Shown piece after piece: positions 4,767 through 18,981 of a DNA stretch of 20,000 nucleotides (position 1 is its first letter; each line of letters starts with the position of its first letter). Origin of the DNA: an uncultured virus (IMG/VR IMGVR_UViG_3300024503_000494) (taxonomy: Duplodnaviria; Heunggongvirae; Uroviricota; Caudoviricetes); the IMG/VR virus record IMGVR_UViG_3300024503_000494, positions 58,914 through 78,913 of that record; one strand, 5' to 3'. The position numbers were made by a program, and so were the translations under genes. The notes beneath the pieces are model-generated. The model ran no database searches, was not told the origin of the DNA, and saw only the letters and a list, made by a program, of their open reading frames with translations.

Positions 4767-5003
4767 TTAGGCCACTTCTTTGAACACACGATAGCCACGG
4801 CCCTGAAGCACACGGATCGCGGCCTGTACTTCTTGATAGTTCTTTTCTTCCCAATCCAACATCTCTTTGGCGCCTTTGATGGTGTCTTCATCGCAGGTGT
4901 TACCTGTGGCAAAGTGACGGTAGAAGTAGTAGCGGCCTTCGTCACCCTCGACTGCCTGGATAGAGCCGATGTTCTTGTAGAGTTGAACTTCGTTGTGTTT
5001 CAT
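4767..5003 (-). CDS. Hypothetical protein, 78 aa
   Basis: GGGAGCGC RBS; own promoter. Confidence 0.8.
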   Translation of the reverse strand: MKHNEVQLYKNIGSIQAVEGDEGRYYFYRHFATGNTCDEDTIKGAKEMLDWEEKNYQEVQAAIRVLQGRGYRVFKEVA

Positions 5004-5032
5004 TTGCGCTCCCTATTTGTTAATATGCGTGT

Positions 5033-5061
5033 ATTATACGATCTTTTGGAAGACCTGTCAA
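5033..5061 (-). promoter_or_regulatory. sigma70-type early promoter
   Basis: TTGACA-17-TATAAT; the TGA in the -35 box is the stop codon of the upstream gene. Confidence 0.9.
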
Positions 5062-5318
5062 CCTCTAGGGTTATTGCGCACAAACTGCCACATCTTAAAC
5101 GCTTCCCCACGCAGACCCATTAGAATCCCTTCGTAGTCTGCATAGGAGCAGCAGGCCCAAAGACTCTGAGGACGATAGGTGTAGCTGCCTGAGCCATCGC
5201 CCCAATCATACTCGCGTTCTGTGTTGTGCTGTGTGACGATCCTTTTCGCAGTTGCAGCCAGCTTGTAATACTTCTGCATATGACCCGAACGCTGATCGTA
5301 GACTACCCAACCTGACAC
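5058..5318 (-). CDS. Hypothetical protein, 86 aa
   Basis: GTG start with GGAGG RBS. Confidence 0.7.
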   Translation of the reverse strand: MSGWVVYDQRSGHMQKYYKLAATAKRIVTQHNTEREYDWGDGSGSYTYRPQSLWACCSYADYEGILMGLRGEAFKMWQFVRNNPRG

Positions 5319-5319
5319 A

Positions 5320-5433
5320 TCAACCTCCGAAGACTATGGTTCCCGCAGCAGCGGCCGTGATTAAGATGGCCTGAGCAATGCCAAAGTGGAACAGAGCCCA
5401 GGTAACTGCAATCCATCCGATGAGTTTGATCAT
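5320..5433 (-). CDS. 37-aa membrane peptide (not in ORF track)
   Basis: MIKLIGWIAVTWALFHFGIAQAILITAAAAGTIVFGG; AGGAGCGAA RBS directly after a promoter. Confidence 0.7.
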   Translation of the reverse strand: MIKLIGWIAVTWALFHFGIAQAILITAAAAGTIVFGG

Positions 5434-5460
5434 TGTTCGCTCCTTTGTTTCAGTGTTTAT

Positions 5461-5489
5461 AGTATAGGATCTTTAGCCCAAACTGTCAA
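5461..5489 (-). promoter_or_regulatory. sigma70-type early promoter
   Basis: TTGACA-17-TATACT; -35 overlaps the upstream TGA stop. Confidence 0.85.
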
Positions 5490-5710
5490 CCAAAATAGTG
5501 GAATAACCCTGCGGCGCATACGGATATGCCCGCTAGGTTAACGATCATCTGTGGCTTATTTGCCACACGGTAGCTCCAAGCAAAATAGCACAGGCCACCG
5601 CAGAGTCCCAAGACGATCTGCAGAGGATGCAGAGTGTGGAAGAAGTTCATAACCACATACATTCCTAAGAGGAATGCAGTACCGGACCATTGGAGTAAGT
5701 TGTTTATCAT
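5486..5710 (-). CDS. Small 3-TM membrane protein, probably leaderless
   Basis: Three hydrophobic helices; ATG 6 nt after the -10 box with no SD. Confidence 0.75.
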   Translation of the reverse strand: MINNLLQWSGTAFLLGMYVVMNFFHTLHPLQIVLGLCGGLCYFAWSYRVANKPQMIVNLAGISVCAAGLFHYFG

Positions 5711-5716
5711 ATGTGT

Positions 5717-5745
5717 ATTTTAACAGCCTTTTACCAATCTGTCAA
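5717..5745 (-). promoter_or_regulatory. sigma70-type early promoter
   Basis: TTGACA-17-TAAAAT. Confidence 0.85.
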
Positions 5746-5750
5746 CCATA

Positions 5751-6062
5751 TTAGCCCAGGTGTTTGCAGGCACCTCTAAATGTAAATCCTGGACAGGTAC
5801 AGGTTTTCTCTGCGTCGTTGACTGTGTAAGTTTTGCCGTTTGAGCCTTGGACTGTGCGTGTGTCATTTGATGCCTTTACTTTGAATGGGTTTGGTGTTAC
5901 GGTTTGGAACTTCCGGCCTCGCTTGTCGAAGCCTTTGATTCCTGACTTGAAATAGAATGGCGTAGTTTCCCCTTGCTTGATATAGGCAACCAGCGTTGTG
6001 CCATCGAGTAGGTAAGTGTGGGCAGGAAACTGCCCCCCAGTGGTTTCCTGTAGGGCTTCCAT
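5751..6062 (-). CDS. SWIM-type zinc-finger protein
   Basis: C-terminal YTV...CTCPGFTFRGACKH (CxC-x8-CxH). Confidence 0.8.
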   Translation of the reverse strand: MEALQETTGGQFPAHTYLLDGTTLVAYIKQGETTPFYFKSGIKGFDKRGRKFQTVTPNPFKVKASNDTRTVQGSNGKTYTVNDAEKTCTCPGFTFRGACKHLG

Positions 6063-6244
6063 TACGCTGCCTCTTCAGTGTTCTCTTGTATAAAGTCCAG
6101 CACGTCATCCGCTGAGTTTTCAATTTGTGTGTGGATGTAGTAGCATTCGTCGCTGGCGCCCATTGCTGACTGTACCAATGCGTCTGCTTCCTGCAGTAGT
6201 TCCACAGCCCTGAGCAGTTGCTGGTTTTGCTTGTTTGTTAACAT
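6062..6244 (-). CDS. Hypothetical acidic helical protein, 60 aa
   Basis: AGGAGCGAA RBS; TAATG coupling to the next gene. Confidence 0.75.
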   Translation of the reverse strand: MLTNKQNQQLLRAVELLQEADALVQSAMGASDECYYIHTQIENSADDVLDFIQENTEEAA

Positions 6245-6269
6245 CTTCGCTCCTTGTTAGTATGTGTAT

Positions 6270-6298
6270 ATTGTATGCCCAAACAGCCAATCTGTCAA
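6270..6298 (-). promoter_or_regulatory. sigma70-type early promoter
   Basis: TTGACA-17-TACAAT. Confidence 0.85.
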
Positions 6299-6316
6299 CC
6301 AATTTGTAATAACCCT

Positions 6317-6709
6317 TTAGCTTGTAGGGCTATCCTTGATCATATACTCATTGCCTTCCACTACGGTACAGCGAACATTGCGCAGTGACTCAGCCATACG
6401 ATTGATGAGTTCTTCACGTGAAGTGCCTTGGCCTAGGAACCGATCGTTGTCCTTGCGGAAAGCATAGAGCATTTCACCGTGCTTTTCCACCTTGATTTCG
6501 ATGTGATCTAACTCAGGTTCATCATGCTCAGGTTCAGGGATAGTGAGGCCATTGGCACGAGCCACACGAATCAAATCCTGATTCTTCACGCCCAACTCCT
6601 TGAGGATCATGGAGAAAGCAGTGAGATGAATGCGGGTCGCAGCCCTGTTACCTAGGAACCAACCCAGGGCAAAGAATATAGCTAGTGTGATCCAATCAAT
6701 AAGTTCCAT
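6317..6709 (-). CDS. Membrane-anchored hypothetical protein, 130 aa
   Basis: N-terminal TM helix; AGGAGAGCG RBS. Confidence 0.8.
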   Translation of the reverse strand: MELIDWITLAIFFALGWFLGNRAATRIHLTAFSMILKELGVKNQDLIRVARANGLTIPEPEHDEPELDHIEIKVEKHGEMLYAFRKDNDRFLGQGTSREELINRMAESLRNVRCTVVEGNEYMIKDSPTS

Positions 6710-6728
6710 CGCGCTCTCCTATTGTTTA

Positions 6729-6757
6729 ATTATATATTCAAAAACGCCAGTTGTCAA
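6729..6757 (-). promoter_or_regulatory. sigma70-type early promoter
   Basis: TTGACA-17-TATAAT. Confidence 0.9.
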
Positions 6758-6759
6758 CC

Positions 6760-6794
6760 AAAAAAAACCCTACTGTACGTGTATACAGTAGGGT
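6760..6794 (-). terminator. Intrinsic terminator
   Basis: CCCTACTGTA/TACAGTAGGG stem followed by a T8 run on the minus strand. Confidence 0.8.
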
Positions 6795-6810
6795 GTTAAG
6801 ACCGCCGATA

Positions 6811-6825
6811 CCGGGAGCGAATCGG
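6811..6825 (-). repeat. 15-nt 3'-UTR element CCGATTCGCTCCCGG, copy 1 (anti-RBS candidate)
   Basis: Identical to 12958-12972; complementary to GGAGCGAA. Confidence 0.8.
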
Positions 6826-6827
6826 GT

Positions 6828-7139
6828 TTATTCGGCGATAGCTTCTGTCTTCGCGACAGTAGTCTTACTTACCTTGGCAGCTGTGGCCAAAGGGTTCTTC
6901 TTGACAATGTAAGCAACAGCAGCTTCTACAGCAGCATTGCCCTTGCCAAAGCCAGTTTCGACCATATAGGCACCAATCTCAGCCTTGGTCATTTCACGTG
7001 GAAGATCCACGAGGTTGATGTCAGTGTGACCATTCTTGGCAAGGATCTTGATGCGCATCACGTCATTAGCGAAACGAACCTTGGTCTTACCTGCTTGAGT
7101 GGAAACACCAGCAACCGCAAACTTCTTATCTGTAGCCAT
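6828..7139 (-). CDS. Hypothetical basic Ala/Lys-rich protein, 103 aa
   Basis: AGAGG RBS; own promoter and terminator. Confidence 0.85.
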   Translation of the reverse strand: MATDKKFAVAGVSTQAGKTKVRFANDVMRIKILAKNGHTDINLVDLPREMTKAEIGAYMVETGFGKGNAAVEAAVAYIVKKNPLATAAKVSKTTVAKTEAIAE

Positions 7140-7193
7140 TTAAATTACCTCTTTCTGTGTGTGTTAAAAAATATACCTTTTTGGTATGTTATA

Positions 7194-7222
7194 AATGTAG
7201 CATCAAGTGCCACTTCTGTCAA
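7194..7222 (-). promoter_or_regulatory. sigma70-type promoter (variant -10)
   Basis: TTGACA-17-TACATT; hairpin ATACC-N5-GGTAT in the leader. Confidence 0.65.
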
Positions 7223-7409
7223 CCATTCGGTTGTCCAATTTAGACACTCGAATGGTCACAGACTCTTTCTCGTCTAGGGCGGCGATAAACTCGTCGTCAT
7301 AGACCAGATCCTGAAAGGCCAAATCGAGCATTTCCTCGACCCGGACCTCGTCCGCTGTGCCTGAACCTCCACAGATGACTTCTAATCGATAGTTAAAGGT
7401 TCTCGACAT
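7203..7409 (-). CDS. Hypothetical protein, 68 aa
   Basis: Overlaps the upstream ORF; C-terminus reads through the next promoter's -35 box. Confidence 0.65.
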   Translation of the reverse strand: MSRTFNYRLEVICGGSGTADEVRVEEMLDLAFQDLVYDDEFIAALDEKESVTIRVSKLDNRMVDRSGT

Positions 7410-7707
7410 TTTCCCAAAATTCCTTGCGTAACATAAACATCGTGTAGGCTTCCTTGCTCAGATACAGCGATGATTTCTCTGCATCCCAGGCCCAAACCGG
7501 CTGATGTCCATCGAAGTAAGTGGGCCGGGCGCAGAACAATTCTCCTGAAGGACCAAACTGTTGCCACAGCCAGTTGCGAGCTCGAACCCATTGTGCAATT
7601 CGAGTCTGCTTCTGGCCATGTGGCTGATAGCCTGTGAACTCGACTCTATGACTGAAGCGATCGTGCCCGTCATAGCGTCGGTCCATTTTGACCACAGTCA
7701 TTGTCAT
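7393..7707 (-). CDS. Hypothetical Trp-rich phage protein, 104 aa
   Basis: ATGA coupling to the upstream gene. Confidence 0.75.
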   Translation of the reverse strand: MTMTVVKMDRRYDGHDRFSHRVEFTGYQPHGQKQTRIAQWVRARNWLWQQFGPSGELFCARPTYFDGHQPVWAWDAEKSSLYLSKEAYTMFMLRKEFWENVENL

Positions 7708-8327
7708 AGAGACTTCAACTCCAGGTTCTTGTCAACACCATCTTTGATCCACTCTGTGAGTTCTTCTTCTTCCTCTTCCTGGAACTCACGGATAGCCTCA
7801 GCGATGCAGAACGCTTCGTCTAGTTCTGGGTAATCCCGTTCGATCTCATCAGCAGTCATGCCTTCGAGGCTAAAGTCCTCGCAGTTGCCGTCCTCATATA
7901 CACCAGCAAAAGCCATACCTGATTCATAGAACTGTGCAGAAACTCGGAAGCCTAGTTGCTCTAACTTCTGATAAGCATTCACGGGTGGAGACCATGCTGA
8001 ATCAAAGGTAGTGAACAGCGTCTTACCATCAGGGTGAATATCAGTCTGTCCATCGCCACCTACATCCCATTTGGTTCCCCACTCGCCGACGCAGTAGTCA
8101 TACCAGTTGCTGTAGCCAAACTTTTCAACATTGGACTTCATCTGTGCTTCCAATGCGGCCTGCTTGTCTCCGTCCCCGTAGGAACCAGCCATGGTTTCTG
8201 TGAGTTCTTTGGGCACAGGAATGAACTCCTGCAGGAACTCTCCACGATCCAGTGCTTCTTTGGCACGAGTAATCATTGCTGGATCATCGTGCTCAAGGGT
8301 CAATGTGTTGTTGCACCAATTTGGCAT
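7704..8327 (-). CDS. DUF1281/YubB ferredoxin-like family protein
   Basis: MPNWCNN start after GGAGCGTG RBS; WYDYC..EWGTKWD, FDSAWSPP and FYESGM motifs. Confidence 0.75.
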   Translation of the reverse strand: MPNWCNNTLTLEHDDPAMITRAKEALDRGEFLQEFIPVPKELTETMAGSYGDGDKQAALEAQMKSNVEKFGYSNWYDYCVGEWGTKWDVGGDGQTDIHPDGKTLFTTFDSAWSPPVNAYQKLEQLGFRVSAQFYESGMAFAGVYEDGNCEDFSLEGMTADEIERDYPELDEAFCIAEAIREFQEEEEEELTEWIKDGVDKNLELKSL

Positions 8328-8328
8328 A

Positions 8329-8532
8329 TCACGCTCCTTCTGTTTCAGTATTAGTATTATACAACCGATCTTCGATGTTGTCAACCAAATTCTGTTCCAA
8401 AGTGTCAGCGGAGCGACTCAGAATCTGGGCCATAGTGCGTTCCACCTTAATCCTCTCTGGAAGGCTCATGGGTGTTTCCAAGGCCTTGACGGCTCGTTGA
8501 ATGTATTGAAATTCCGTAGGGGTCATCGCCAA
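8329..8532 (-). CDS. Hypothetical protein, about 65-67 aa
   Basis: Coupled to the upstream gene; last third overlaps the promoter and RBS of the next unit. Confidence 0.55.
   Translation of the reverse strand: MAMTPTEFQYIQRAVKALETPMSLPERIKVERTMAQILSRSADTLEQNLVDNIEDRLYNTNTETEGA
8356..8384 (-). promoter_or_regulatory. sigma70-type early promoter
   Basis: TTGACA-17-TATAAT. Confidence 0.9.
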
Positions 8533-8771
8533 TCCTTCTTGTTACCATCACGCTCGTTGTCGTTGTAGCCGGCCATGTATTCAGCCACTGAAGCCTCGTC
8601 GTTGACCGAGACTCGGGCGCCGGAATCGCCTCCCACTCCACCGTAGTGAGGATCACGTGCCCTACCGTAGTAGGAGTCTGCGGATCCACGATCATACAAG
8701 CAACCATGGGTTCCACGCACGAACTGCCAACCCTTTAGGGCATTTACAACACGCTGTTTTTCTGTTATCAT
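8523..8771 (-). CDS. Hypothetical phage protein, 82 aa
   Basis: AGGAGCGAA RBS; HGCLYDRGSADSYYGR motif. Confidence 0.8.
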   Translation of the reverse strand: MITEKQRVVNALKGWQFVRGTHGCLYDRGSADSYYGRARDPHYGGVGGDSGARVSVNDEASVAEYMAGYNDNERDGNKKDWR

Positions 8772-8794
8772 CGTTCGCTCCTTATCATAGTTCT

Positions 8795-8823
8795 ATTGTA
8801 TGATCAAGCAGCCAATTTGTCAA
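8795..8823 (-). promoter_or_regulatory. sigma70-type early promoter
   Basis: TTGACA-17-TACAAT. Confidence 0.85.
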
Positions 8824-8944
8824 CCAATTTCAACTCAGGTTTTCCTACAACACGGCCGCCGTTGATTGTGGCGTACATTTCCGCTACAGCCCGAACGTAG
8901 AACTTCTGGGAGTTGCCATTGGGGTAAATCACGGTGTATTCCAT
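8804..8944 (-). CDS. 46-aa protein (not in ORF track)
   Basis: MEYTVIYPNGNSQKFYVRAVAEMYATINGGRVVGKPELKLVDKLAA; AGGAGAGCGA RBS after a promoter. Confidence 0.7.
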   Translation of the reverse strand: MEYTVIYPNGNSQKFYVRAVAEMYATINGGRVVGKPELKLVDKLAA

Positions 8945-8966
8945 TCGCTCTCCTAACTATGTGTCA

Positions 8967-8995
8967 ATTATAGCAAGGATCAGCCAAAGTGTCAA
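8967..8995 (-). promoter_or_regulatory. sigma70-type early promoter
   Basis: TTGACA-17-TATAAT; -35 overlaps the upstream TGA stop. Confidence 0.9.
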
Positions 8996-9258
8996 CCAGT
9001 TTTTTTAGCGATATGTGGATAACCTTTGAGTTTGGCGGGTTTCTTCTTGACCTTAAACTCTTTCTCAACATAGTATTTGAGCAGCTCTGTTTGGATCATT
9101 TTGACCAAATCCGAACCGTTAGATTCCGGGCAGATGAACCGAACCGGACAGTGACCCCAACTCATATGCTCTAGGAATTGGTTGTAGTAGCGTCTGTGCA
9201 TCTTGTTCCTTGGATCAAAGGCTACAAGGGGGCGGGCGTAGTATTCTAATTTGCTCAC
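8992..9258 (-). CDS. Hypothetical basic protein, 88 aa
   Basis: GTGA overlap with the upstream small ORF. Confidence 0.7.
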   Translation of the reverse strand: MSKLEYYARPLVAFDPRNKMHRRYYNQFLEHMSWGHCPVRFICPESNGSDLVKMIQTELLKYYVEKEFKVKKKPAKLKGYPHIAKKTG

Positions 9259-9431
9259 GAATTTACAGTCTCAAACGGATCGTAGGAATCGTCTGTGGTT
9301 AGCCCGTTACCGGCGATCCAATCATAGACCATCTCTGTGGGGCACTCCAACATGAGAGCAATCATCTTAGGCGAATGACCTTCGATATACAGTTGCTCGA
9401 TATCATAGGCAAGATCTGCGACTTTACTCAT
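9255..9431 (-). CDS. 58-aa HTH-like protein (not in ORF track)
   Basis: MSKVADLAYDIEQLYIEGHSPKMIALMLECPTEMVYDWI...; G-x-S-x-x-x-IA-x-x-L...V-x-x-W HTH pattern; ATGA coupling. Confidence 0.7.
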   Translation of the reverse strand: MSKVADLAYDIEQLYIEGHSPKMIALMLECPTEMVYDWIAGNGLTTDDSYDPFETVNS

Positions 9432-9559
9432 TTAGCATTCTCCATAACTCCAGTTACAACCGTGTGGGTGGTATCAACAGCATTACCAACGATGGTCTTA
9501 GTAACAGCAGGGTACAGGACAGCCAATGTTAAAAATACTCCTAACAAGAATTTAAGCAT
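9428..9559 (-). CDS. 43-aa membrane or secreted peptide (not in ORF track)
   Basis: MLKFLLGVFLTLAVLYPAVTK...; AAGGAGTGAT RBS after a promoter. Confidence 0.7.
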   Translation of the reverse strand: MLKFLLGVFLTLAVLYPAVTKTIVGNAVDTTHTVVTGVMENAK

Positions 9560-9591
9560 TTTATCACTCCTTACTTTGTTACGATATCTAT

Positions 9592-9620
9592 ATTATACAA
9601 CCAATCTACCTATCTGTCAA
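9592..9620 (-). promoter_or_regulatory. sigma70-type early promoter
   Basis: TTGACA-17-TATAAT. Confidence 0.9.
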
Positions 9621-9700
9621 GACCTAGATTCACGCACACACGTAGCAGCGGGGCCACTTAGGAAGTTGTGGCTTTTTAGCCACAACCCCCGGCACTCCGG

Positions 9701-10906
9701 TTAGCCCGTTTCCTTTTCGTAGATAACAGTCTGACCAAAGGGTGCTTGAGCAGATGTGTTACCTTTAACGATAAAGATTGTGTCGCAGTAGTCCTCAGGA
9801 CCCCAACTACCGCAGGGATAGCCGTCTGTGAACATAATGAACTTCTTAGGGCGAATGTCATTCTCTTCCATAAAGGTAAAGTTGACATCGAAGTCTGTGC
9901 CACCGCCACCTTGAGGTTCATACTCAACCAAGTCTTCAGCGTTGTCGTGGCTGATGCTTTGGTGATTGTAGATCTCTGTGTCAAAACACCACAGGTTGAT
10001 CTTGAAGTCCTCGTATTGATCCATAATGCCTTTGATCTCAGAAAGGAATACAGTTGCATCCTCTTCACCGATCGAACCCGACATATCGATTGCAATAGCC
10101 ACGTCAATGGTAGTTGCTTCTTTCATACCAGGAAGCACCGCACCTGAGTGTTGGCTCTTACGATTGTAGCGAGCGAATGAGTAGTCATTACGCACAATAG
10201 ATTGGATCTCTTGCTGAACCAATTGGCGCCAGTCCATTTTAGGCTCAGTCATAGTCTTGATCATACGCATAATGCCCGCAGGAGTCTTACCTGCACCAGC
10301 GGCCGCGGCACTTTGGATCATAGCCTCTTTGATCTCTTGACGCAGTTTCTCAGCTTCTTCCTTACTGAGCGTAGGCTTCTCTTTGCCGTCTTTGGTCTTG
10401 TCGCCAGGGCTACCAGCACCTTCTTCTTCTTTAATGTGCTCGTCCAAAAGGTCACCCAATTGCTTCAGCAGTTGATCCATAGGGATCTTCTCTGCTTGTT
10501 CATACAATTGATCGTAGATTTCTTCCCAAGCCATACCACGATACTTGGGATCGTAGCAGATCTTAACCTCGGTGATCTTCTCACCGATGCGTTCGTCTAC
10601 AAGGATTTGGTTTACGGCATAGTCCTGTGCGATGTTAGACAGCATACGATCACGTGAACCTACGCGACCAAAGTGATCAAAAACGCAGTGGCAGATCTCG
10701 TGTGCCAGCAGGAACTCTAACTTCTTAACAGACAGTTTGTTAATGAAGTCCTTGTTATACATAAAGTCACGGCCGTTAGTTGCCGCGGTAGGGCACCAGT
10801 CTGAAGCGTCCATCAAACGCATACGGGTGGCCATATTGCCGAAGAAGGGTGCTTTCAAAAGCAGGCCTACTCGTGCAGTAGTTAGTTTCTCAACGATTGG
10901 ATCCAT
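9701..10906 (-). CDS. HExxH metallopeptidase plus vWA-like domain protein (DUF2201-like)
   Basis: PTAATNG and HEICH in the N-terminal domain; MIDAS-like IDMSGS, GGGTDF and FTDGY in the C-terminal domain. Confidence 0.9.
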   Translation of the reverse strand: MDPIVEKLTTARVGLLLKAPFFGNMATRMRLMDASDWCPTAATNGRDFMYNKDFINKLSVKKLEFLLAHEICHCVFDHFGRVGSRDRMLSNIAQDYAVNQILVDERIGEKITEVKICYDPKYRGMAWEEIYDQLYEQAEKIPMDQLLKQLGDLLDEHIKEEEGAGSPGDKTKDGKEKPTLSKEEAEKLRQEIKEAMIQSAAAAGAGKTPAGIMRMIKTMTEPKMDWRQLVQQEIQSIVRNDYSFARYNRKSQHSGAVLPGMKEATTIDVAIAIDMSGSIGEEDATVFLSEIKGIMDQYEDFKINLWCFDTEIYNHQSISHDNAEDLVEYEPQGGGGTDFDVNFTFMEENDIRPKKFIMFTDGYPCGSWGPEDYCDTIFIVKGNTSAQAPFGQTVIYEKETG

Positions 10907-10931
10907 AAGTCGCTCTCCTTAGTATGTATAT

Positions 10932-10960
10932 ATTATAGCACCGGAAATCCAATGCGTCAA
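10932..10960 (-). promoter_or_regulatory. sigma70-type early promoter
   Basis: TTGACG-17-TATAAT. Confidence 0.85.
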
Positions 10961-10964
10961 CCGT

Positions 10965-10995
10965 AAAAAAAGGGTGTTGTATTTCTACAACACCC
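10965..10995 (-). terminator. Intrinsic terminator
   Basis: GGGTGTTGTA-GAAA-TACAACACCC followed by T7 on the minus strand. Confidence 0.8.
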
Positions 10996-11012
10996 CCGCA
11001 ATGGGCGAGGTC

Positions 11013-12098
11013 TTAATTCTCCATTGCTGAAAGAACATACTTGCCGAAACGCTTGTGGAACTCGTCGAACGACTTCATCTTAGTAGCGTCCAGGGGCAGG
11101 TCGTAGTTAGTAAGAGCAGTCTTTGCACCCATAACAACCAACTCTGTTGGGAAGTTAGCCATCATATAGGCAAAGAAGTTATCTGCCATACCGTCCCAGT
11201 CCTTGACCTTCTTCTCAGCACGGTCTTTCAACTCGTAGCAGAGTGAAACAGTCAACGAATACATCGCAGACACTTCTTTGATCTGCAGGTCCTTGACCTT
11301 GCCATCCAAAATGTCTTCTGCCTTAGGCAGTTTGCCTGCGATCTTACGGTGAGCCATAAACTTATTGCTCAGACCGTCACCAACGGCACCCGCAATCAGG
11401 GTAGCCAAAGTCTCGTTGTCAACATCGTCGTCGCTGAGCAGGTCAGAAACGAACATCCAAGAACGAGGAGTAGCAAATGACTTGCTAGGGCTCTTAGGAT
11501 CGAAGTCATACAGGTCTTGCTTGGCAAAGCCTACATAACCTACGACATCTGGATGCACCTTGTTCAAGGTAGCCCAGTCTTGCCAGTCATCAAAGTCCAC
11601 TTTCATTTCCAAGTGAACGAAACGGTTAGCCAGCGGAGCAGGCATACGGTAGGTAACACCACGGTCACCTTCACGGTTACCAGCGGCGACTACGTCAACA
11701 CCCTTAGGCAGTTCGTAGGTACCAACACGACGGTTCAGAATCAACTGATAGGCCGCGGCCTGAACAGCAGGAGGAGCAGAGTTCAATTCATCCAAGAAGA
11801 TGATTGCCTTGCTATCTGGGTCCACAGGCAGTTCTGCAGGAGGAGCCCAAGTCATTTTGCCTTGATCGGCATTGTAATAAGGAATACCCTTGATGTCGGT
11901 GGGCTCCCAAAGTGCTAGGCGGACGTCGATGACCTCACGACCTGCGTCTTCACCGATCTGCTTGACGAGATCGGATTTACCAATGCCTGGAGGACCCCAC
12001 AGGAACACTGGACGGCGAACATTGACCGCCTTACGAATTGCCTTCTTGGCGTTTTTAGGACCAACTTGGCGAACGGAAACATCTACTTGCTTTGACAT
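11013..12098 (-). CDS. MoxR-like/AAA_5 AAA+ ATPase
   Basis: Walker A GPPGIGKS, Walker B IIFLDELN, sensor AAGN, Arg finger PLANRF, and TPRSW. Confidence 0.9.
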   Translation of the reverse strand: MSKQVDVSVRQVGPKNAKKAIRKAVNVRRPVFLWGPPGIGKSDLVKQIGEDAGREVIDVRLALWEPTDIKGIPYYNADQGKMTWAPPAELPVDPDSKAIIFLDELNSAPPAVQAAAYQLILNRRVGTYELPKGVDVVAAGNREGDRGVTYRMPAPLANRFVHLEMKVDFDDWQDWATLNKVHPDVVGYVGFAKQDLYDFDPKSPSKSFATPRSWMFVSDLLSDDDVDNETLATLIAGAVGDGLSNKFMAHRKIAGKLPKAEDILDGKVKDLQIKEVSAMYSLTVSLCYELKDRAEKKVKDWDGMADNFFAYMMANFPTELVVMGAKTALTNYDLPLDATKMKSFDEFHKRFGKYVLSAMEN

Positions 12099-12147
12099 AA
12101 GACCTCGCTTAAAAAACAGTTAAAACAATTACTCTCTCAGTATCATT

Positions 12148-12176
12148 ATTGTAGCACCAGGTGCCCAACCTGTCAA
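12148..12176 (-). promoter_or_regulatory. sigma70-type early promoter
   Basis: TTGACA-17-TACAAT; -35 overlaps the upstream TGA stop. Confidence 0.85.
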
Positions 12177-12814
12177 CTGATGATTTTCACATAATTTAGG
12201 GCTGTTGTTTTATCGCCACGATGCTGTTTGATCTTGGCCTTCACCCGCAGTTCACCTTCTACAGCACGTGAGAACCAAAAGTCCACAAATGACTCACCTG
12301 CACGGGCGTAGATCTTGAACTTGTTGTATTCAGGATTGTAACGCGAACGTATTACAGTCAGAGAGATCACAACAGTATCCCCTACAGCGCCCGGGAGTTG
12401 CTCACTTTGGAACAGTTCTCGTTTCATCTCCGTCCGGGATTGCTCCATGCGAGCTGACTGGGGCAAGCAGCTGACAATGGCGAAGTCCAACATATCACGG
12501 CCCGTGAACTCGTCCTTTTGGGCAATCTTGAGAGCAGTCTGCTCGAAGTCTGTGATCTTCCCAGTCAGCAGCTTCATGGTGAAGGTGTTGATCTGTGCGC
12601 GATATTGCTGTCCCTGAGCGATCTCTTCTGCTGTAGGCTGCACATTGTCGCGGAGCCATTGCTTGACCAAGACCTTGTTTGGTTGCTTGATCACGGTGTT
12701 GTAGTCTATCCCGTGGGTGGCAGTAGCAGCATAGACTGGCTCTTTGCAGTAGCCGCCATTTTGAACATCAGCCCTAACAGCCAGGCCCCATACTTGATCT
12801 GCTGTGAATTGCAT
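12173..12814 (-). CDS. Hypothetical protein with possible C-terminal OB-fold
   Basis: GGAGCGAA RBS; beta-rich C-terminus GAVGDTV...VKAKIKQH...TALNYVK. Confidence 0.75.
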   Translation of the reverse strand: MQFTADQVWGLAVRADVQNGGYCKEPVYAATATHGIDYNTVIKQPNKVLVKQWLRDNVQPTAEEIAQGQQYRAQINTFTMKLLTGKITDFEQTALKIAQKDEFTGRDMLDFAIVSCLPQSARMEQSRTEMKRELFQSEQLPGAVGDTVVISLTVIRSRYNPEYNKFKIYARAGESFVDFWFSRAVEGELRVKAKIKQHRGDKTTALNYVKIIS

Positions 12815-12841
12815 TCTTCGCTCCGTTGTCTAACTGTCTCT

Positions 12842-12870
12842 ATTATATAGCTGATCGCCCAAGTTGTCAA
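12842..12870 (-). promoter_or_regulatory. sigma70-type early promoter
   Basis: TTGACA-17-TATAAT. Confidence 0.9.
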
Positions 12871-12917
12871 CCGGTTTGGAGAGTGCCGGCCGGTGTGGCA
12901 TTTTTGCAACATCCAGC

Positions 12918-12945
12918 CAAAAGAAAAGCCGCTGTAGTAGCGGCT
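12918..12945 (-). terminator. Intrinsic terminator
   Basis: AGCCGCT-ACTAC-AGCGGCT followed by TTTCTTTT. Confidence 0.75.
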
Positions 12946-12957
12946 CAAAGAAAGTCC

Positions 12958-12972
12958 CCGGGAGCGAATCGG
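12958..12972 (-). repeat. 15-nt 3'-UTR element CCGATTCGCTCCCGG, copy 2 (anti-RBS candidate)
   Basis: Identical to 6811-6825; a second GTCGCTCCT lies at 12985-12993. Confidence 0.8.
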
Positions 12973-12995
12973 ATCGTTTACTTTAGGAGCGACTC

Positions 12996-13268
12996 TTAAA
13001 GAGTGATACCCATTGCGCGAGCTTTGTAGCCAAGTGCTACGATCTCACGGCTTGGTTGGCCCAACTCGTATTCGGTAACAGTCACACCGTTGCCAGCAAC
13101 ACGAGTGTTGGCATAAACAGCGTAACCATGCTGACGAATGCGGCTTGCTTCAGCAGCCAAGTTACCTACGCCGAAACGCTTAGTTGCTTCGGATTGGGTA
13201 AGTTTTGCACCATTGTAAAGTGCGTTGAAGACCTTGAAAGTCTTGGTGTCTTTAGAAATGCGTTTCAT
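12996..13268 (-). CDS. Winged-helix/HTH DNA-binding protein
   Basis: LTQSEATKRFGVGNLAAEASRIRQHGYAVY...YEL wHTH pattern. Confidence 0.75.
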   Translation of the reverse strand: MKRISKDTKTFKVFNALYNGAKLTQSEATKRFGVGNLAAEASRIRQHGYAVYANTRVAGNGVTVTEYELGQPSREIVALGYKARAMGITL

Positions 13269-13321
13269 TTTGTTTCCTTTTAAGTTAATATAGCTGATTA
13301 CTTGTTCTTCAGCGTTCTTAA

Positions 13322-13350
13322 ATATTAGCAGAACGCTCTGGAAGAATCAA
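13322..13350 (-). promoter_or_regulatory. sigma70-type promoter (variant)
   Basis: GGTTGATT-17-TAATAT. Confidence 0.55.
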
Positions 13351-13352
13351 CC

Positions 13353-13550
13353 TCAATCTTTCCTTTTTACGGATACATTCGCTCGAAAGAAAGTTCCTAG
13401 GATCACAACAGCAGCCCAAGTAGCCAAACCAAATTCAATAGCCAGGCTAGGGAACAGCGTGTTCAGTGACCAGATCACAAGCCACGGTCCAATCGCCAAC
13501 AATACAACGATCAGCAAGAATGCCAATGCGATCTTAATTACGGTACTCAT
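13353..13550 (-). CDS. Small 2-TM membrane protein
   Basis: Hydrophobic; IWSLNTLFP motif; ATGA coupling. Confidence 0.8.
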   Translation of the reverse strand: MSTVIKIALAFLLIVVLLAIGPWLVIWSLNTLFPSLAIEFGLATWAAVVILGTFFRANVSVKRKD

Positions 13551-13777
13551 AGTAATTCTCCTATCTCTTCTGCTAGTTTAACAGACTCGATTTCCTTTTG
13601 CAAGAGCTTTTCTGCTCGTTTTCCATTTACTGAAGTGCCACCCTGATATACTTTGTAGAAGTGGTCAGCACAGTAGCTCTTTCCAGTTAGATTGGGCTTA
13701 CCGCAGTAGTGAACAGAACCCTTGCGGGGGTCCTGTTCGGGCCCAATCCACTGACAGGTCAGCGGACGGTAATCCAT
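13547..13777 (-). CDS. GcrA C-terminal-like Cys/His protein
   Basis: TCQWIG...YCG...GKSYCADH pattern. Confidence 0.65.
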   Translation of the reverse strand: MDYRPLTCQWIGPEQDPRKGSVHYCGKPNLTGKSYCADHFYKVYQGGTSVNGKRAEKLLQKEIESVKLAEEIGELL

Positions 13778-14883
13778 TATGCAATTCCTTTCATAACAGT
13801 GACCTTGGCCATATTCTGCCAGTTAGATGGGAAGCTCTTGCGCAGGTCTGCGACTTTGAGCACAGTACGCAGGCTCAGTTCACGCATAGTAGCGCGATTG
13901 TCGTCGATGAAGCTGACAACCTCATCTTTGGCAATGTCCTCCAGCTCGTAGCTATCCAACATACCATCCTTGACAATCTGCTTGATACGCAGTACCTTCT
14001 CGCGATCTGTGTCCATACGCAGATCAATATAGTGACAGCGTGACTCTAGGGCCGCCAAGTGCTCCTGCAGTTTCTTAGAGCGAACGTTCTCAAACTTCAA
14101 GTTAGTGATAAAGATAGCACCACCCTTGAACTCGAAACGATCTGGCACTCCTTCTGAACGAAGCAGACGGCTGTCAGTGTTCCACGAAATGGTACGCTTC
14201 TTGCTAGAGTCCAAAGCGGCCTTAAGAATGTTAAGTGCAATGTCGTCCAAAAGAATTGAGTCACAGTCGTCGAACACAAGAATGTTCTTAGCGTCTGAGT
14301 ATTTGTAGAGCTTAGTGTACAGACCAATGGCTGACATTGCGCCCTTGACGATCTCATATTTGGGCTTACGCTGACCCATCATATCAAACAGATCGTCTTT
14401 GGCAAGTACTTCTTCAACGCCAAAGGATTTGCCCACACCTGGAGGGCCTGTGACGATCATAGCACGTACATCACCATTCTTGACAGCTTTAGTCATATCT
14501 TTGAGGATGTCAAAGCGCAGACGAGTGCGTTCGATGATGTCCTCGTCGGACTCGTGTGCTACAGCAGTATCGGGCACCTTGATCTGAGTGAAATCGGTGA
14601 CCTCTGCGCCTTTGGCACTCTTTGACTTTAAAGCAGTCAGCATTGATACCCCTTGTGGAATTTGTGTTGCTTGAACAGTACCTGCGACAGCATAGTCGCC
14701 CTGACGGCACTTGATTCGGATATTGCGCTCAGGGAAGCCCTCTACACTAGTACCATCAACAGTAACATAGCCGTCGCCGTTCTTAGACACTTTGTAATCT
14801 TCTACAAGATTAAAAGTAAGTCCTGCAACGTTAACAGGTTGACCCTTGATGTTGTACCAGCCTTCAGTGAATGTAATCTGCAT
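13777..14883 (-). CDS. P-loop (AAA-like) ATPase with N-terminal extension
   Basis: Walker A GPPGVGKS, Walker B LVFDDCD, IFITN and ALESR; GGAGCGAA RBS. Confidence 0.85.
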   Translation of the reverse strand: MQITFTEGWYNIKGQPVNVAGLTFNLVEDYKVSKNGDGYVTVDGTSVEGFPERNIRIKCRQGDYAVAGTVQATQIPQGVSMLTALKSKSAKGAEVTDFTQIKVPDTAVAHESDEDIIERTRLRFDILKDMTKAVKNGDVRAMIVTGPPGVGKSFGVEEVLAKDDLFDMMGQRKPKYEIVKGAMSAIGLYTKLYKYSDAKNILVFDDCDSILLDDIALNILKAALDSSKKRTISWNTDSRLLRSEGVPDRFEFKGGAIFITNLKFENVRSKKLQEHLAALESRCHYIDLRMDTDREKVLRIKQIVKDGMLDSYELEDIAKDEVVSFIDDNRATMRELSLRTVLKVADLRKSFPSNWQNMAKVTVMKGIA

Positions 14884-14913
14884 CTTCGCTCCGTTTTGTT
14901 TAACTATGACTCT

Positions 14914-14942
14914 ATTGTACCATCAAACAGCCAACCTGTCAA
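14914..14942 (-). promoter_or_regulatory. sigma70-type early promoter
   Basis: TTGACA-17-TACAAT. Confidence 0.85.
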
Positions 14943-14958
14943 CCCCTAAAAATAACCC

Positions 14959-15399
14959 TTAGTCTTCTAGGGTTTCTGCTTCCATCAACACAGCAGCGAG
15001 CAAGCGGTAGGGGCGTCCGTATTCGGAAACATACCACTGATCGTCCGAACGGAAGATATACTCGTATTCCTCGTACTGGTGATCCTTGACGTAGGCTTCG
15101 TAGTTAGCGAAAACAGCAGCTTCAGTATCGCTCTCACCACGATCTCGACCGTAGGCACAGGTCCAGTTGTTGCGGTGATCTTCGTTGGTATAGCGAGCAT
15201 CGAAGTCGTGAGGCTCACCGATCTCAGGACGCAGCGAGCTGATCGATCCCAAGAGCATGAGTGCCAGGACCTTGGCACGATCTGTATAATGTTCGCTGAG
15301 AATTTGACCGTTGTGATCAATGTAGCCGTCCCAGTGGCAGTAGATCTGCATTACGCGGCCGTCGGGTTGCTCCATTGCAATAGTGCTTCGTGTAGCCAT
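14959..15399 (-). CDS. Conserved phage hypothetical protein (TRS...YCHWDGY type)
   Basis: MATRSTI...IYCHWDGY...AYGRDRGE...EEYEYIF; AGGAGCGAA RBS. Confidence 0.85.
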   Translation of the reverse strand: MATRSTIAMEQPDGRVMQIYCHWDGYIDHNGQILSEHYTDRAKVLALMLLGSISSLRPEIGEPHDFDARYTNEDHRNNWTCAYGRDRGESDTEAAVFANYEAYVKDHQYEEYEYIFRSDDQWYVSEYGRPYRLLAAVLMEAETLED

Positions 15400-15428
15400 T
15401 GTTCGCTCCTGTGTGTTGCTAAGCCTAT

Positions 15429-15815: not shown

Positions 15816-15849
15816 AGTTTCGCTCCTTAGTTGCGTTGTTGAAGTGTTT

Positions 15850-16818: not shown

Positions 16819-16844
16819 TCGCTCCTTAACGTTACAATACCTGT

Positions 16845-17202: not shown

Positions 17203-17226
17203 TGCTCGCTCCTTCAACATATGTAT

Positions 17227-18396: not shown

Positions 18397-18981
18397 TATG
18401 TTACCTACGCAGCGGGGCCACTATAAGCAGAGACTCAGGATAATGGCTAGACCACAGGCAAGCACTATACGAGCATGACGGCGCTCTAGCCAACTCTTAC
18501 TGTATATAGATTCGTATATGAGTATGAGGACCAAGGGCAGAGTTGCACAGCATATATAGGTTAACATCAGATCGCTCCTGAGTATACAGTATATATCTAG
18601 AATCACTCGCAGCGGGGCCACTGTATATAGGTCGTTAGAACAGTCTAGAACGCTAGTTCTAGAGTGAATTCGTGTCTAGAAAACGGTCAAACGGTTCGAA
18701 CTAGGGAGATCTACTGTAAATTTTATAGTAGACTAAAAGTCTAGAACGGTGGTATGAGAGGCTATGCTCAAATGGTCACACAATTTCACACTTTATCACA
18801 CTTTCTACTACTTTTCTGCACCCTTTTCCAATCCCCACCAGGTCGCTAGACCTCTATACGCATCTTGGGGGTCAGTAAATCACACTTACTGAGCTTTTTC
18901 CAGCGTATATACGCACATTGAGCGTGCTCACGCTAGACTTATTATGCGTATACGTATATGTCACTATAGCGCAGCGGGGCC
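18183..18981 (+). repeat. Dispersed direct repeat GCAGCGGGGCC (four copies here, one at 9645)
   Basis: Exact 11-mer at 18183, 18409, 18609, 18971 and 9645. Confidence 0.85.
18421..18567 (-). CDS. Small 2-TM peptide, 48 aa
   Basis: MLTYICC start after AGGAGCGAT RBS. Confidence 0.5.
   Translation of the reverse strand: MLTYICCATLPLVLILIYESIYSKSWLERRHARIVLACGLAIILSLCL

What the first reader, a model, noticed from the sequence alone, without database searches (positions are those of the whole stretch)
6811..12993. Candidate trans-acting anti-RBS RNA switch: 3'-UTR elements complementary to the shared RBS of the early genes
Seen: the identical 15-mer CCGAUUCGCUCCCGG (mRNA sense) lies between the stop codon and terminator of two genes, at 6811-6825 after the 103-aa gene and 12958-12972 after the wHTH gene. 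The second UTR has an extra GUCGCUCCU at 12985-12993. The CCG/CGG arms (or CCGAU/AUCGG in copy 1) would present UCGCUCC in a loop. This is the exact complement of the GGAGCGA(A) motif before at least 10 start codons in the region. Neither carrier gene uses GGAGCG (they use AGAGG and AAGGAAA), and both have variant promoters. No plus-strand ATG follows the element, so it is not an RBS for an opposite-strand gene. Inference: these 3'-UTRs, or sRNAs processed from them, could pair with many early mRNAs and silence them together. That would be a phage early-gene shut-off by one seed sequence; I know of no description of this exact arrangement.
Basis: partly seen in the sequence, partly recalled or inferred. 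Interest (0 to 1): 0.9.

Follow-up and report, generated by a model that had tools for sequence, protein, structure and literature searches.

The report
Anti-ribosome-site hairpins ending phage early messages
An uncultured giant river/lake phage ends its early messages with a conserved RNA hairpin whose loop mirrors the ribosome-binding site of its early genes, which probably lets RNA pairing alone damp early protein synthesis.

Summary
CCGAUUCGCUCCCGG (mRNA sense) lies at 6811-6825 and 12958-12972, each between a stop codon and a terminator. GGAGCGA precedes 10 early start codons.

The 15-mer is the core of a widespread RNA hairpin, conserved across related uncultured giant-phage contigs. The loop AUUCGCUCC is nearly invariant. 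The inner stem changes in a compensating way (CCG/CGG, CAG/CUG, CCUAGG/CCUAGG and others). So does an outer stem, built from the gene's last codons and stop codon. G.U outnumbers A.C, which points to the mRNA strand.

Loop and ribosome site occur together or not at all in the records examined.

The gene between the two copies, a MoxR-type ATPase, carries a private version. Its stop codon plus 8 nt is the exact complement of its own ribosome site (11 bp), and the two sites co-vary across relatives. This shows 3'-end-to-ribosome-site RNA pairing in this phage family.

Promoter and terminator scans suggest nested early transcripts that share these 3' ends.

No RNA-end data exist and nothing has been tested at the bench. 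I class it as a new variant of a known kind (icaR-type 3'UTR pairing; C-rich-loop small RNAs).

The parts
6801..6839 (-). Anti-ribosome-site hairpin, copy 1. The outer stem pairs AUCGCCGA (6839-6832, the last codons) with UCGGCGGU (6808-6801). It encloses the stop codon (6830-6828) and the 15-mer core (6825-6811).
   Evidence: MFE -31.2 kcal/mol, z -3.54, 0 of 200 shuffles fold as well. Co-variation in homologous loci.
6811..6825 (-). 15-mer core CCG-AUUCGCUCC-CGG: a 3-bp inner stem and a 9-nt loop complementary to GGAGCGAA(U).
6767..6794 (-). Intrinsic terminator after copy 1 (12-bp stem, then U8). A perfect promoter follows at 6757-6729.
12958..12972 (-). 15-mer core, copy 2, in the 3'UTR of the HTH_39 gene. 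The flanking stem is weak in this phage (AAAG.AAA with UUUACUUU).
   Evidence: The fold is not better than shuffles (z -0.24). Relatives have clear 7-10 bp stems.
12985..12993 (-). Second, linear anti-site copy GUCGCUCCU, starting 2 nt after the stop codon. It is the complement of the GGAGCGAC ribosome-site variant.
   Evidence: Similar second copies occur in relatives.
12926..12946 (-). Terminator after copy 2. A perfect promoter follows at 12870-12842.
11005..11015 (-). Private anti-site of the MoxR-type ATPase gene: UAAGACCUCGC (stop codon plus 8 nt).
   Evidence: It forms an 11-bp perfect helix with the gene's own ribosome site (duplex -22.2 kcal/mol). This is the only helix of 11 bp among 116 genes; the next longest is 8 bp.
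12098..12108 (-). Ribosome site, spacer and first base of the start codon of the ATPase gene: GCGAGGUCUUA. It is the pairing partner of 11005-11015.
   Evidence: compensatory changes in relatives.
10970..10997 (-). Terminator after the ATPase gene. This is the third strong minus-strand terminator of the early region.
12818..12825 (-). GGAGCGAA ribosome site of the 213-aa gene, the first gene after copy 2.
   Evidence: -13.4 kcal/mol with the loop.
14886..14893 (-). GGAGCGAA ribosome site (368-aa AAA-type gene).
15403..15410 (-). GGAGCGAA ribosome site (146-aa gene).
15820..15827 (-). GGAGCGAA ribosome site (117-aa gene).
16819..16826 (-). GGAGCGAA ribosome site (59-aa gene).
17206..17212 (-). 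GGAGCGA(G) ribosome site (110-aa gene).
18572..18578 (-). GGAGCGA(U) ribosome site (48-aa gene).
8775..8782 (-). GGAGCGAA ribosome site (82-aa gene, 8523-8771).
6247..6254 (-). GGAGCGAA ribosome site (60-aa gene, 6062-6244).
5437..5444 (-). GGAGCGAA ribosome site of a short gene.

Best explanation
The two 15-mers are the conserved core of an RNA hairpin placed at the 3' end of early transcription units, between the last stop codon and the terminator.

Shown by sequence comparison:
- The stems vary and compensate, while the 9-nt loop AUUCGCUCC is almost invariant.
- The loop is the exact complement of the early genes' shared ribosome site GGAGCGAA.
- The functional strand is the mRNA strand.
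- In this phage family a 3'-end element can pair with a ribosome site. The ATPase gene between the two copies has a private stop-codon-adjacent element that co-varies with its own ribosome site.

Inferred:
- The loop pairs with GGAGCGAA sites and occludes them, lowering translation and perhaps exposing the mRNA to cleavage.
- Most early genes have their own promoter but share three terminators. The hairpin would therefore sit on the same nested, co-terminal transcripts that carry these sites.
- The anti-site is made only when a transcript is finished, so each early message could be translated while it is being made and damped afterwards.
- Because the site is shared, the same loops could also act on other early mRNAs in trans.
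- The element sits close to the stop codon: 0-3 nt after it, or including it. A terminating ribosome may therefore control its accessibility.
For: Structure:
- Downstream of 26 unique homologues of the 103-aa gene, 13 have the exact 15-mer, 7 have 1-3-nt variants that keep UCGCUC (6 of them UUCGCUC), and 6 have none. The element starts 0-3 nt after the stop codon, with otherwise unrelated flanks.
- On an alignment of 19 such regions, 85.3% of cells pair, against 23-54% when the partner is slid. Six of 10 pairs have changes on both sides; 19 cells do, a count that 0 of 500 shuffles reach.
- In 108 unique contexts of the exact 15-mer, the best flanking helix scores 7.14, against 4.11 +/- 0.13 with permuted partners. 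A helix of 6 bp or more is found in 81 of 108, against 28.6 expected (maximum 41). There are 68 distinct 5' arms. Inside the helices G.U occurs 90 times and A.C 41 times.
- The same loop is carried by at least 8 different inner stems.

Complementarity:
- With the 9-nt loop, 10 of 30 predicted early-region genes reach -10 kcal/mol or better, against 2 of 86 other genes.

Co-occurrence:
- The ribosome-site motif is enriched over the backwards-read control in G001-G004, G011 and G014. It is not enriched in G005 (353 kb, 99% complete), G012, G013 or phage PA5oct.
- Antisense copies were inspected and confirmed in G000, G004 and G011 only.
- In G011, 20 of 31 GGAGCGA copies are ribosome sites. All 3 antisense hairpins lie in the early region.
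- Among AAA-ATPase carrier homologues (65 unique loci): 47 have both, 12 neither, 1 the ribosome site only, 5 the 3' copy only. Four of those 5 have AGAGCGA in their ribosome site.

Principle shown next door:
- The ATPase gene's ribosome site GCGAGGUCUUA pairs with UAAGACCUCGC. This is the only 11-bp helix among 116 genes, and none of 2,320 permuted pairs reaches 11.
- In 43 anchored relatives, 262 Watson-Crick pairs form at 8 flanking positions, against 224.4 +/- 5.1 with permuted partners (maximum 241 in 1,000). One position shows 4 pair types, and changes in the stop codon (UAA, UAG, UGA) are compensated.

Architecture:
- The window has 20 near-consensus minus-strand promoters but only 3 strong terminators, each preceded by an anti-site element.
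- In G004 about 19 promoters are followed by one strong terminator, which comes right after two hairpins.

Loop shape:
- The loop contains UUCG, a YUNR motif. Such motifs are described as a general rate enhancer in antisense-RNA recognition loops (passage in PMC4485353).
Against: - The flagged loop is invariant, so it shows no loop/ribosome-site co-variation of its own. The co-variation comes from a different, private pair.
- The loop is more conserved than pairing alone requires. AUU precedes CGCUCC in 96 of 110 cases, while ribosome-site position 8 is A in only 47 of 89 and position 9 is U in only 23 of 89. Some extra constraint is acting; a protein partner or the loop's shape are candidates.
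- Copy 2 in this window does not fold better than shuffles (z -0.24).
- The 103-aa and HTH carriers' own ribosome sites are not complementary: 0 of 24 unique leaders of the 103-aa gene have GGAGCG. Pairing in cis therefore needs read-through from upstream promoters, which is inferred from consensus scans only.
- No transcript ends, no levels and no strand information are available. RNA-library contigs bridge the element and the terminator, and they may include DNA.
- Co-occurrence follows relatedness, so it is not a set of independent events.
- By my strict rule, 35 of 108 exact-match contexts are not 3' elements. Some of these are unrelated high-GC sequences.
Confidence: 0.5

Rival explanations
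1. A stable small RNA is released from the carrier 3'UTRs, or the abundant carrier mRNAs themselves serve this role. It acts in trans on many early mRNAs through one seed and shuts early translation off as a temporal switch.
For: - The hairpin after the 103-aa gene is the best conserved, yet this gene never uses GGAGCG itself (0 of 24 unique leaders). The same holds for the HTH gene in this window. So these hairpins cannot regulate their own cistron.
- The seed is presented in an apical loop with a YUNR motif, as in fast-binding antisense RNAs.
- There are 2-3 copies per 3'UTR in 43 of 65 AAA-ATPase loci, the last one inside the terminator hairpin. This resembles the layout of small RNAs.
- One shared site precedes 10 or more genes.
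Against: - No evidence exists for a separate or stable RNA (contigs only).
- The outer stem co-varies with the last codons, so the unprocessed mRNA form is under selection.
- Carriers in the AAA-ATPase family carry the target site themselves (47 of 65 loci).
- The only pairing shown by co-variation is between the two ends of one gene.
- In relatives the 103-aa gene has an ordinary early promoter, so production would not be delayed.
Confidence: 0.25
2. The hairpin is a protein-binding RNA signal. One possibility is an antitermination signal read by a phage factor just before the terminator, laid out like phage lambda's cro-nutR-tR1 region (recalled, not tested). Another is a stability or processing site. 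On this view the complementarity to the ribosome site is secondary.
For: - A conserved loop on a variable stem is the usual signature of a protein-recognised hairpin.
- The loop is more conserved than pairing with the variable ribosome-site extension requires.
- The position is immediately before terminators.
Against: - It does not explain why the invariant 8 nt are the exact complement of the phage-specific ribosome site. Nor does it explain why the two occur together.
- Genes after the terminators have their own perfect promoters, so read-through is not needed.
- No partner protein or second linear box was seen.
- The neighbouring private element works by RNA pairing.
Confidence: 0.15
3. This is a DNA-level feature. 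It could be an orientation-independent binding site for a DNA-binding protein, or a remnant of inverted promoter/ribosome-site cassettes left by modular recombination (PeSL-like shuffling).
For: - The same 15 bp occurs in both orientations next to gene borders. In three related contigs it lies in sense orientation right before the start codon of a csgF-like gene.
- Terminator-plus-promoter modules like PeSLs flank the genes (PMC2839356, abstract seen).
Against: - A double-stranded DNA site needs no flanking stems. Here two nested stems co-vary, and G.U outnumbers A.C 90 to 41.
- Strict conservation within otherwise saturated flanks argues against a relic.
- The ribosome-site copies lack the CCG/CGG arms, so the two kinds of site are under different constraints.
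Confidence: 0.05

Closest known systems
icaR mRNA 5'UTR-3'UTR pairing, Staphylococcus aureus (PMC3868564; abstract seen)
   Same: A C-rich motif in a 3'UTR pairs with the Shine-Dalgarno region. There it blocks the initiation complex and creates an RNase III substrate. The ATPase gene's private pair here has the same layout, with both ends on one mRNA.
   Different: Here the host is a phage, and the element lies at or within 3 nt of the stop codon. The flagged version is a hairpin loop shared by several transcription units and matches a ribosome site shared by 10 or more genes. No effect on translation or decay has been measured.
C-rich-loop small RNAs that bind Shine-Dalgarno sequences (RsaE and other Rsa RNAs with unpaired UCCC; PMC2790875, abstract seen)
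   Same: An unpaired C-rich motif is displayed in hairpin loops, it is complementary to ribosome sites of several mRNAs, and the proposed effect is a block of the initiation complex.
   Different: No independent small transcript is shown here. The motif is longer (UUCGCUCC) and matches a phage-specific extension of the ribosome site rather than the generic one. It is embedded in mRNA 3' ends.
T4 RegB endoribonuclease (PMC3014915; passages seen)
   Same: The proposed purpose is the same: functional inactivation of many phage early mRNAs through a motif in their ribosome sites.
   Different: RegB is a protein nuclease that cuts GGAG. Here the proposed agent is an RNA loop, and no RegB-like gene was looked for.
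PeSL cassettes of T4-type phages (PMC2839356; abstract seen)
   Same: Strong sigma-70-like early promoters are coupled to terminator stem-loops between small early genes. The three terminators here are each followed within about 10 to 56 nt by such a promoter.
   Different: PeSLs, as described in that abstract, have no anti-ribosome-site loop. The hairpin here is an extra element upstream of, or merged with, the terminator.

Membership tests
icaR-type 3'UTR/5'UTR pairing | A 3'UTR motif complementary to the Shine-Dalgarno region of an mRNA that carries it. | tested here: met
   ATPase gene: an 11-bp perfect helix with its own site. Flagged hairpin: 8-nt complement of GGAGCGAA. Its own carriers in this window lack the site, but upstream genes likely co-transcribed with them, and 47 of 65 AAA-ATPase carrier loci, have it.
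icaR-type 3'UTR/5'UTR pairing | Pairing demonstrated by compensatory changes. | tested here: inconclusive
   Met for the private ATPase pair by natural co-variation: 262 Watson-Crick pairs against 224.4 +/- 5.1 with permuted partners, and several pair types per position. Not testable for the flagged motif, because loop and core site are invariant.
icaR-type 3'UTR/5'UTR pairing | Inhibition of translation initiation and RNase III cleavage. | not testable with these tools
   This needs toeprinting, reporters or RNase assays.
C-rich-loop trans-acting small RNAs (Rsa/RNAIII type) | An independent, stable small transcript. | not testable with these tools
   24 RNA-library runs hold the region, but only as assembled contigs, which show no ends, strand or level.
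C-rich-loop trans-acting small RNAs (Rsa/RNAIII type) | An unpaired C-rich motif in a loop, complementary to ribosome sites of several mRNAs. | tested here: met
   UUCGCUC is unpaired in the MFE fold of 74 of 108 contexts. With the loop, 10 of 30 early genes reach -10 kcal/mol or better, against 2 of 86 others.
nut/boxB-type antitermination hairpin (features recalled) | A conserved loop on a variable stem in nascent RNA. | tested here: met
nut/boxB-type antitermination hairpin (features recalled) | A promoter-proximal position, an accompanying linear box and a cognate antiterminator protein, with downstream genes that depend on read-through. | tested here: not met
   The element is next to the terminator. 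No second conserved box appears in the aligned flanks. Downstream genes have their own 12-of-12 promoters. No partner protein was identified, and none was searched for specifically.
Rfam families | A match to any curated covariance model. | tested here: not met
   A cmscan of the whole window at E up to 1 gave three tRNAs and one weak chance hit, none of them at the elements.
PeSL regulatory cassettes | A strong sigma-70-like early promoter joined to a terminator stem-loop between small early genes. | tested here: met
   Terminator/promoter pairs lie at 6794-6767/6757-6729, 10997-10970/10960-10932 and 12946-12926/12870-12842. Mini-circle formation and shuffling were not tested.

The most novel reading that the evidence does not exclude
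A family of giant phages runs an RNA-only, translation-coupled control of its whole early gene set. Every early transcription unit ends in an anti-ribosome-site element that touches or includes the stop codon. A terminating ribosome would therefore unmask the element, and an idle message would fold its 3' end back onto its own or its siblings' ribosome sites. This would work either as a built-in timer that silences each early mRNA after it is completed, or as a closed loop that hands ribosomes from stop to start. It would be a phage counterpart of T4 RegB that needs no protein.
Probability: 0.25. Interest if true: 0.85.

Novelty: new variant of a known kind. Interest (0 to 1): 0.7.

Why it matters
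How large lytic phages end their early phase is only partly understood. T4 uses a nuclease that cuts early ribosome sites. Here a large group of uncultured river and lake giant phages appears to have written the off-signal into the RNA itself. Its parts are a phage-specific ribosome site shared by early genes, its exact complement displayed at the 3' ends of early transcripts, and a gene-specific version whose two halves have co-evolved.

If confirmed, this would extend 3'UTR-to-ribosome-site pairing from a single bacterial example to a genome-wide viral design. It would give a compact RNA part (8-nt site plus hairpin) usable for synthetic control of translation. It would also make the role of the stop-codon position testable.

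My text searches found no description of it. The library is limited to open-access papers and preprints.

Tried and rejected
- Near-identity DNA search of 6000-14000 against deposited phages: no match.
- The 103-aa protein against the same collection: no match. It also had no Pfam or PHROG family.
- An AlphaFold model of the 103-aa protein (pLDDT 73.1) found no PDB fold (best E 0.65), so the carrier's function stays unknown.
- Rfam: nothing at the elements.
- Literature search with the raw motif returned only primers and unrelated sequences (930 papers, first 15 listed).
- Earlier notes of this scan, searched by place and by sequence: nothing.
- I looked in G005, a complete relative without the motif, for a clade with a different ribosome-site/anti-site pair. 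I used k-mer enrichment upstream of starts and downstream of stops. Its sites are AAAGGAA-type and no complementary 3' motif is enriched.
- RNA evidence: 24 riverine metatranscriptome runs hold the region, and four were laid on it. They are contigs only, so they show no ends, strand or levels. Contigs bridge 5795-7005 and 12788-13170. In one run a contig begins at 12958 directly after adapter sequence; a second adapter-flanked end lies at an unrelated place (11106). I give neither any weight.
- A possible third element, GUCGCUCC at 8410-8417, has no hairpin and no terminator, and I saw it only in the near-identical contig. I do not count it.
- I considered a resemblance of the + strand motif to a tRNA T-arm and to a segment of 16S rRNA. 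I dropped both, because they rest on recall only and do not explain the stems or the position.

Full report
WHERE THE WINDOW LIES. The window is the last 20 kb of a 78,913-bp viral record, which CheckV rates as 22% complete. From about 4300 to 19300 it carries small minus-strand genes. There are 20 minus-strand promoter-like sites matching TTGACA-17-TATAAT in 11 or 12 of 12 positions, and only three strong minus-strand terminators: 6794-6767, 10997-10970 and 12946-12926. The rest of the record has 40% G+C and mostly plus-strand genes; the window has 47%. The nearest deposited phages are PA5oct-like Pseudomonas giant phages, judged by the MoxR-type ATPase (51% identity). Nothing similar exists at DNA level.

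THE OBSERVATION. On the mRNA strand, CCGAUUCGCUCCCGG lies at 6825-6811 and 12972-12958. These are the only two copies in the record. Copy 1 starts 2 nt after the stop codon of a 103-aa gene. Copy 2 lies in the 3'UTR of an HTH_39 gene, and a second, linear GUCGCUCCU starts 2 nt after that stop codon. GGAGCGA occurs 15 times in the window, against 1.63 expected. Ten minus-strand copies sit 0-4 nt before an ATG. Its side remarks hold in this window: the carriers use other ribosome sites, their promoters are weaker, and no plus-strand start codon follows.

WHAT THE 15-MER IS.

- Spread of the exact match. A 15-mer will also give chance hits in a collection of that size, so I judged by context.

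- Flanking complementarity. The 108 unique contexts show strong flanking complementarity. The best helix scores 7.14, against 4.11 +/- 0.13 when the 3' flanks are permuted. A helix of 6 bp or more occurs in 81 of 108, against 28.6 expected. There are 68 different 5' arms.

- Strict classification. A strict rule (flanking helix of 5 bp or more, plus a T-run within 75 nt) is met by 66 of 108 contexts. Seven were classed as sense-strand copies before a start codon, though L035 and L064 lie in high-G+C contexts that may be chance matches. Thirty-five were classed as other. Many of these are still element-like, and some are unrelated high-G+C sequences.

- Motif-independent test. I fetched homologues of the 103-aa gene by protein similarity. 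Of 26 unique downstream regions, 13 have the exact 15-mer, 7 have variants that keep UCGCUC (6 of them UUCGCUC), and 6 (the most distant) have nothing. The element always begins 0-3 nt after the stop codon. The gene's last codons and stop codon pair with the bases just after the 15-mer, and this outer stem changes in a compensating way.

- Formal pair count. On 19 aligned regions, 85.3% of cells pair, against 23-54% when the partner is slid. Six of 10 pairs have double changes.

- Inner stem. The inner 3-bp stem also compensates (G-C 16, A-U 2). Across all loci the same loop AUUCGCUCC is carried by CCG/CGG, CUG/CAG, GUG/CAC, CCUAGG/CCUAGG, CCUUGG/CCAAGG, GGUUG/CAACC, GCUAG/CUAGC and GUCAG/CUGAU.

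- Strand. G.U outnumbers A.C 90 to 41 inside the helices, which points to the mRNA strand.

- Fold and family. Copy 1 folds as expected (-31.2 kcal/mol, z -3.54). Copy 2 in this phage does not fold convincingly (z -0.24). No Rfam family matches.

OTHER CARRIERS. A 298-aa AAA ATPase of related phages carries one to three copies in its 3'UTR. The counts over 65 unique loci are 0 copies in 13, 1 in 9, 2 in 41 and 3 in 2. The last copy forms the apical part of the terminator hairpin. In six loci the stop codon UGA is itself the start of the first copy.

LINK TO THE RIBOSOME SITE. The invariant UUCGCUCC is the exact complement of GGAGCGAA.

- In this record, 10 of 30 predicted early-region genes pair with the 9-nt loop at -10 kcal/mol or better, against 2 of 86 other genes. 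The two carriers score -2.8 and -2.3.

- The ribosome-site motif is enriched over the backwards-read control in G001-G004, G011 and G014. It is not enriched in G005 (353 kb, 99% complete), G012, G013 or PA5oct. I inspected and confirmed antisense copies in G000, G004 and G011.

- In G011, 20 of 31 GGAGCGA copies are ribosome sites, and the 3 antisense hairpins all lie in the early region.

- Among the AAA-ATPase loci the table is: 47 both, 12 neither, 1 ribosome site only, 5 3' copy only. Four of the last five have AGAGCGA(A), which keeps the phage-specific part of the site.

- These counts follow relatedness and are not independent events.

The loop is in fact more conserved than the variable end of the ribosome site: AUU precedes CGCUCC in 96 of 110 cases, while site position 8 is A in 47 of 89 and position 9 is U in 23 of 89. 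So something besides pairing constrains it. One candidate is loop geometry, because UUCG fits the YUNR U-turn motif reported in antisense recognition loops (passage in PMC4485353). A protein partner is the other.

THE DECISIVE NEIGHBOUR. The third terminator of the region follows the MoxR-type ATPase gene (11013-12098), which lies between the two flagged copies.

- Its stop codon plus 8 nt (UAAGACCUCGC, 11015-11005) is the perfect complement of its own ribosome site, spacer and first start-codon base (GCGAGGUCUUA, 12108-12098).

- This 11-bp helix is unique among the record's 116 genes; the next longest is 8 bp. None of 2,320 permuted pairs reaches 11 bp. The duplex energy is -22.2 kcal/mol.

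- In 62 unique homologous loci the two sites change together. Variants seen include GGAGGUCUUA/UAAGACCUCC, ACGAGGUCUUA/UAAGACCUCGU, AGGGGUCUUA/UAAGACCCCU, AGGGGGUUU/AAACCCCCU and GGAGAGGUCA/UGACCUCUCC. Stop-codon changes to UAG or UGA are compensated in the ribosome-site region.

- Over 43 anchored loci, 262 Watson-Crick pairs form at eight flanking positions, against 224.4 +/- 5.1 with permuted partners (maximum 241 of 1,000). One position shows four pair types.

- A more distant clade (71-73% identity) has neither the pairing nor the element.

It is passed, but by a gene-specific pair whose two halves lie on one mRNA.

- All three strong early terminators in the window are therefore preceded by an anti-ribosome-site element: two shared and one private.

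HOW IT PROBABLY WORKS.

- Shown: a conserved, structured RNA element on the mRNA strand; exact complementarity to the shared early ribosome site; and real 3'-end-to-ribosome-site pairing in this phage family.

- Inferred from consensus scans: most early genes have their own promoter but share terminators, so nested transcripts end at the same hairpins. In G004 about 19 promoters precede a single strong terminator, which comes right after two hairpins. Most 103-aa-gene loci have a GGAGCG-type gene within 1.5 kb upstream without a clear terminator between them.

- Consequence: the anti-site would then sit on the messages that carry the sites. Because it is transcribed last, it could damp each message after completion. 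Because the site is shared, action in trans is also possible. Trans action is the only option for transcripts that start at the 103-aa or HTH gene's own promoter.

- Open question: the strict closeness to the stop codon, in both the shared and the private versions, suggests that the terminating ribosome controls access. I cannot tell repression from other outcomes such as decay, protection or re-initiation.

- Odds: 0.5 for pairing that acts mainly on co-terminal early mRNAs, 0.25 for a strictly trans-acting small-RNA switch, 0.15 for a protein-read hairpin, 0.05 for a DNA-level feature.

COMPARISON WITH WHAT IS KNOWN. The closest described case is icaR of S. aureus, where a 3'UTR motif pairs with the gene's own Shine-Dalgarno region (abstract). 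The loop display resembles the UCCC-loop Rsa small RNAs (abstract). The proposed purpose resembles T4 RegB, which inactivates early mRNAs at GGAG ribosome sites (passages). The terminator/promoter modules resemble PeSL cassettes (abstract). None of these combines a phage-specific shared ribosome site with 3'-terminal anti-site hairpins.

My text searches found no such description; subscription journals are not covered. Earlier unchecked notes of this scan describe similar elements in other giant lake phages. One of them prompted me to compare carriers' own ribosome sites. I found the ATPase pair while reading and tested it independently.

RNA DATA. Twenty-four riverine metatranscriptome runs hold the region. 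Four were laid on it, but as assembled contigs only, which cannot show ends, strand or level and may include DNA.

VERDICT. I class it as a new variant of a known kind, with interest 0.7.

Noticed in passing
window 17553-17800 (-): Three tRNA genes lie in a row inside the early region (Rfam tRNA, 55.5-68.5 bits).
   Followed up: no
L171 (G008), L174 (G007), L176 (G006), L180 (G011): In related contigs the same 15-mer occurs in sense orientation, about 8 nt after a TAAATA-type box and 0-2 nt before the start codon of a csgF-like secreted protein. Curlin-repeat-like genes that also use GGAGCGAA sites lie nearby. This leader is fully complementary (15 nt) to the 3' hairpin, so it could be a special target.
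   Followed up: partly
window 7140-7225 (-) and L126-L166: The 103-aa gene has a conserved leader (ACACACACAGAAAGAGGUAA) preceded by a variable hairpin plus a U-run, downstream of its promoter. The protein has no family and no PDB fold match.
   Followed up: partly
window 8410-8417 (-): A lone GUCGCUCC lies in an intergenic stretch about 85 nt upstream of the GGAGCGUG site of the next gene. The MFE fold pairs the two across the promoter, but the fold is no better than shuffles (z 0.23).
   Followed up: partly
window 13269-13345 (-): The HTH_39 gene's weak promoter is overlapped by an 8-bp inverted repeat (AGCGTTCT / AGAACGCT), which looks like an operator for autoregulation (read).
   Followed up: no
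record G000 positions 19343 (+) and 42372 (-), outside the window: Two further copies of CCGGGAGCGA are followed by (A)CCCAAC. One lies inside a 1152-aa gene and one is intergenic next to a TATAAT box.
   Followed up: no
whole record against the window: G+C is 40.3% for the whole 78.9-kb record and 46.7% in the window. In related contigs a conserved G-rich box followed by TATA(C/T)A-type sequence comes after the early-region terminator. This may be another promoter class.
   Followed up: no
window 12958: In RNA run X3 a contig begins exactly at 12958, the 3' end of copy 2 on the mRNA strand, directly after sequencing-adapter letters (table 7). It is a single case, and a similar adapter-flanked end lies at an unrelated place (11106).
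   Followed up: no
window 9701-12098 (-): A MoxR-type AAA ATPase gene is followed by a gene with DUF2201 metallopeptidase-like and VWA-like domains. The two form a conserved pair in this early region.
   Followed up: no
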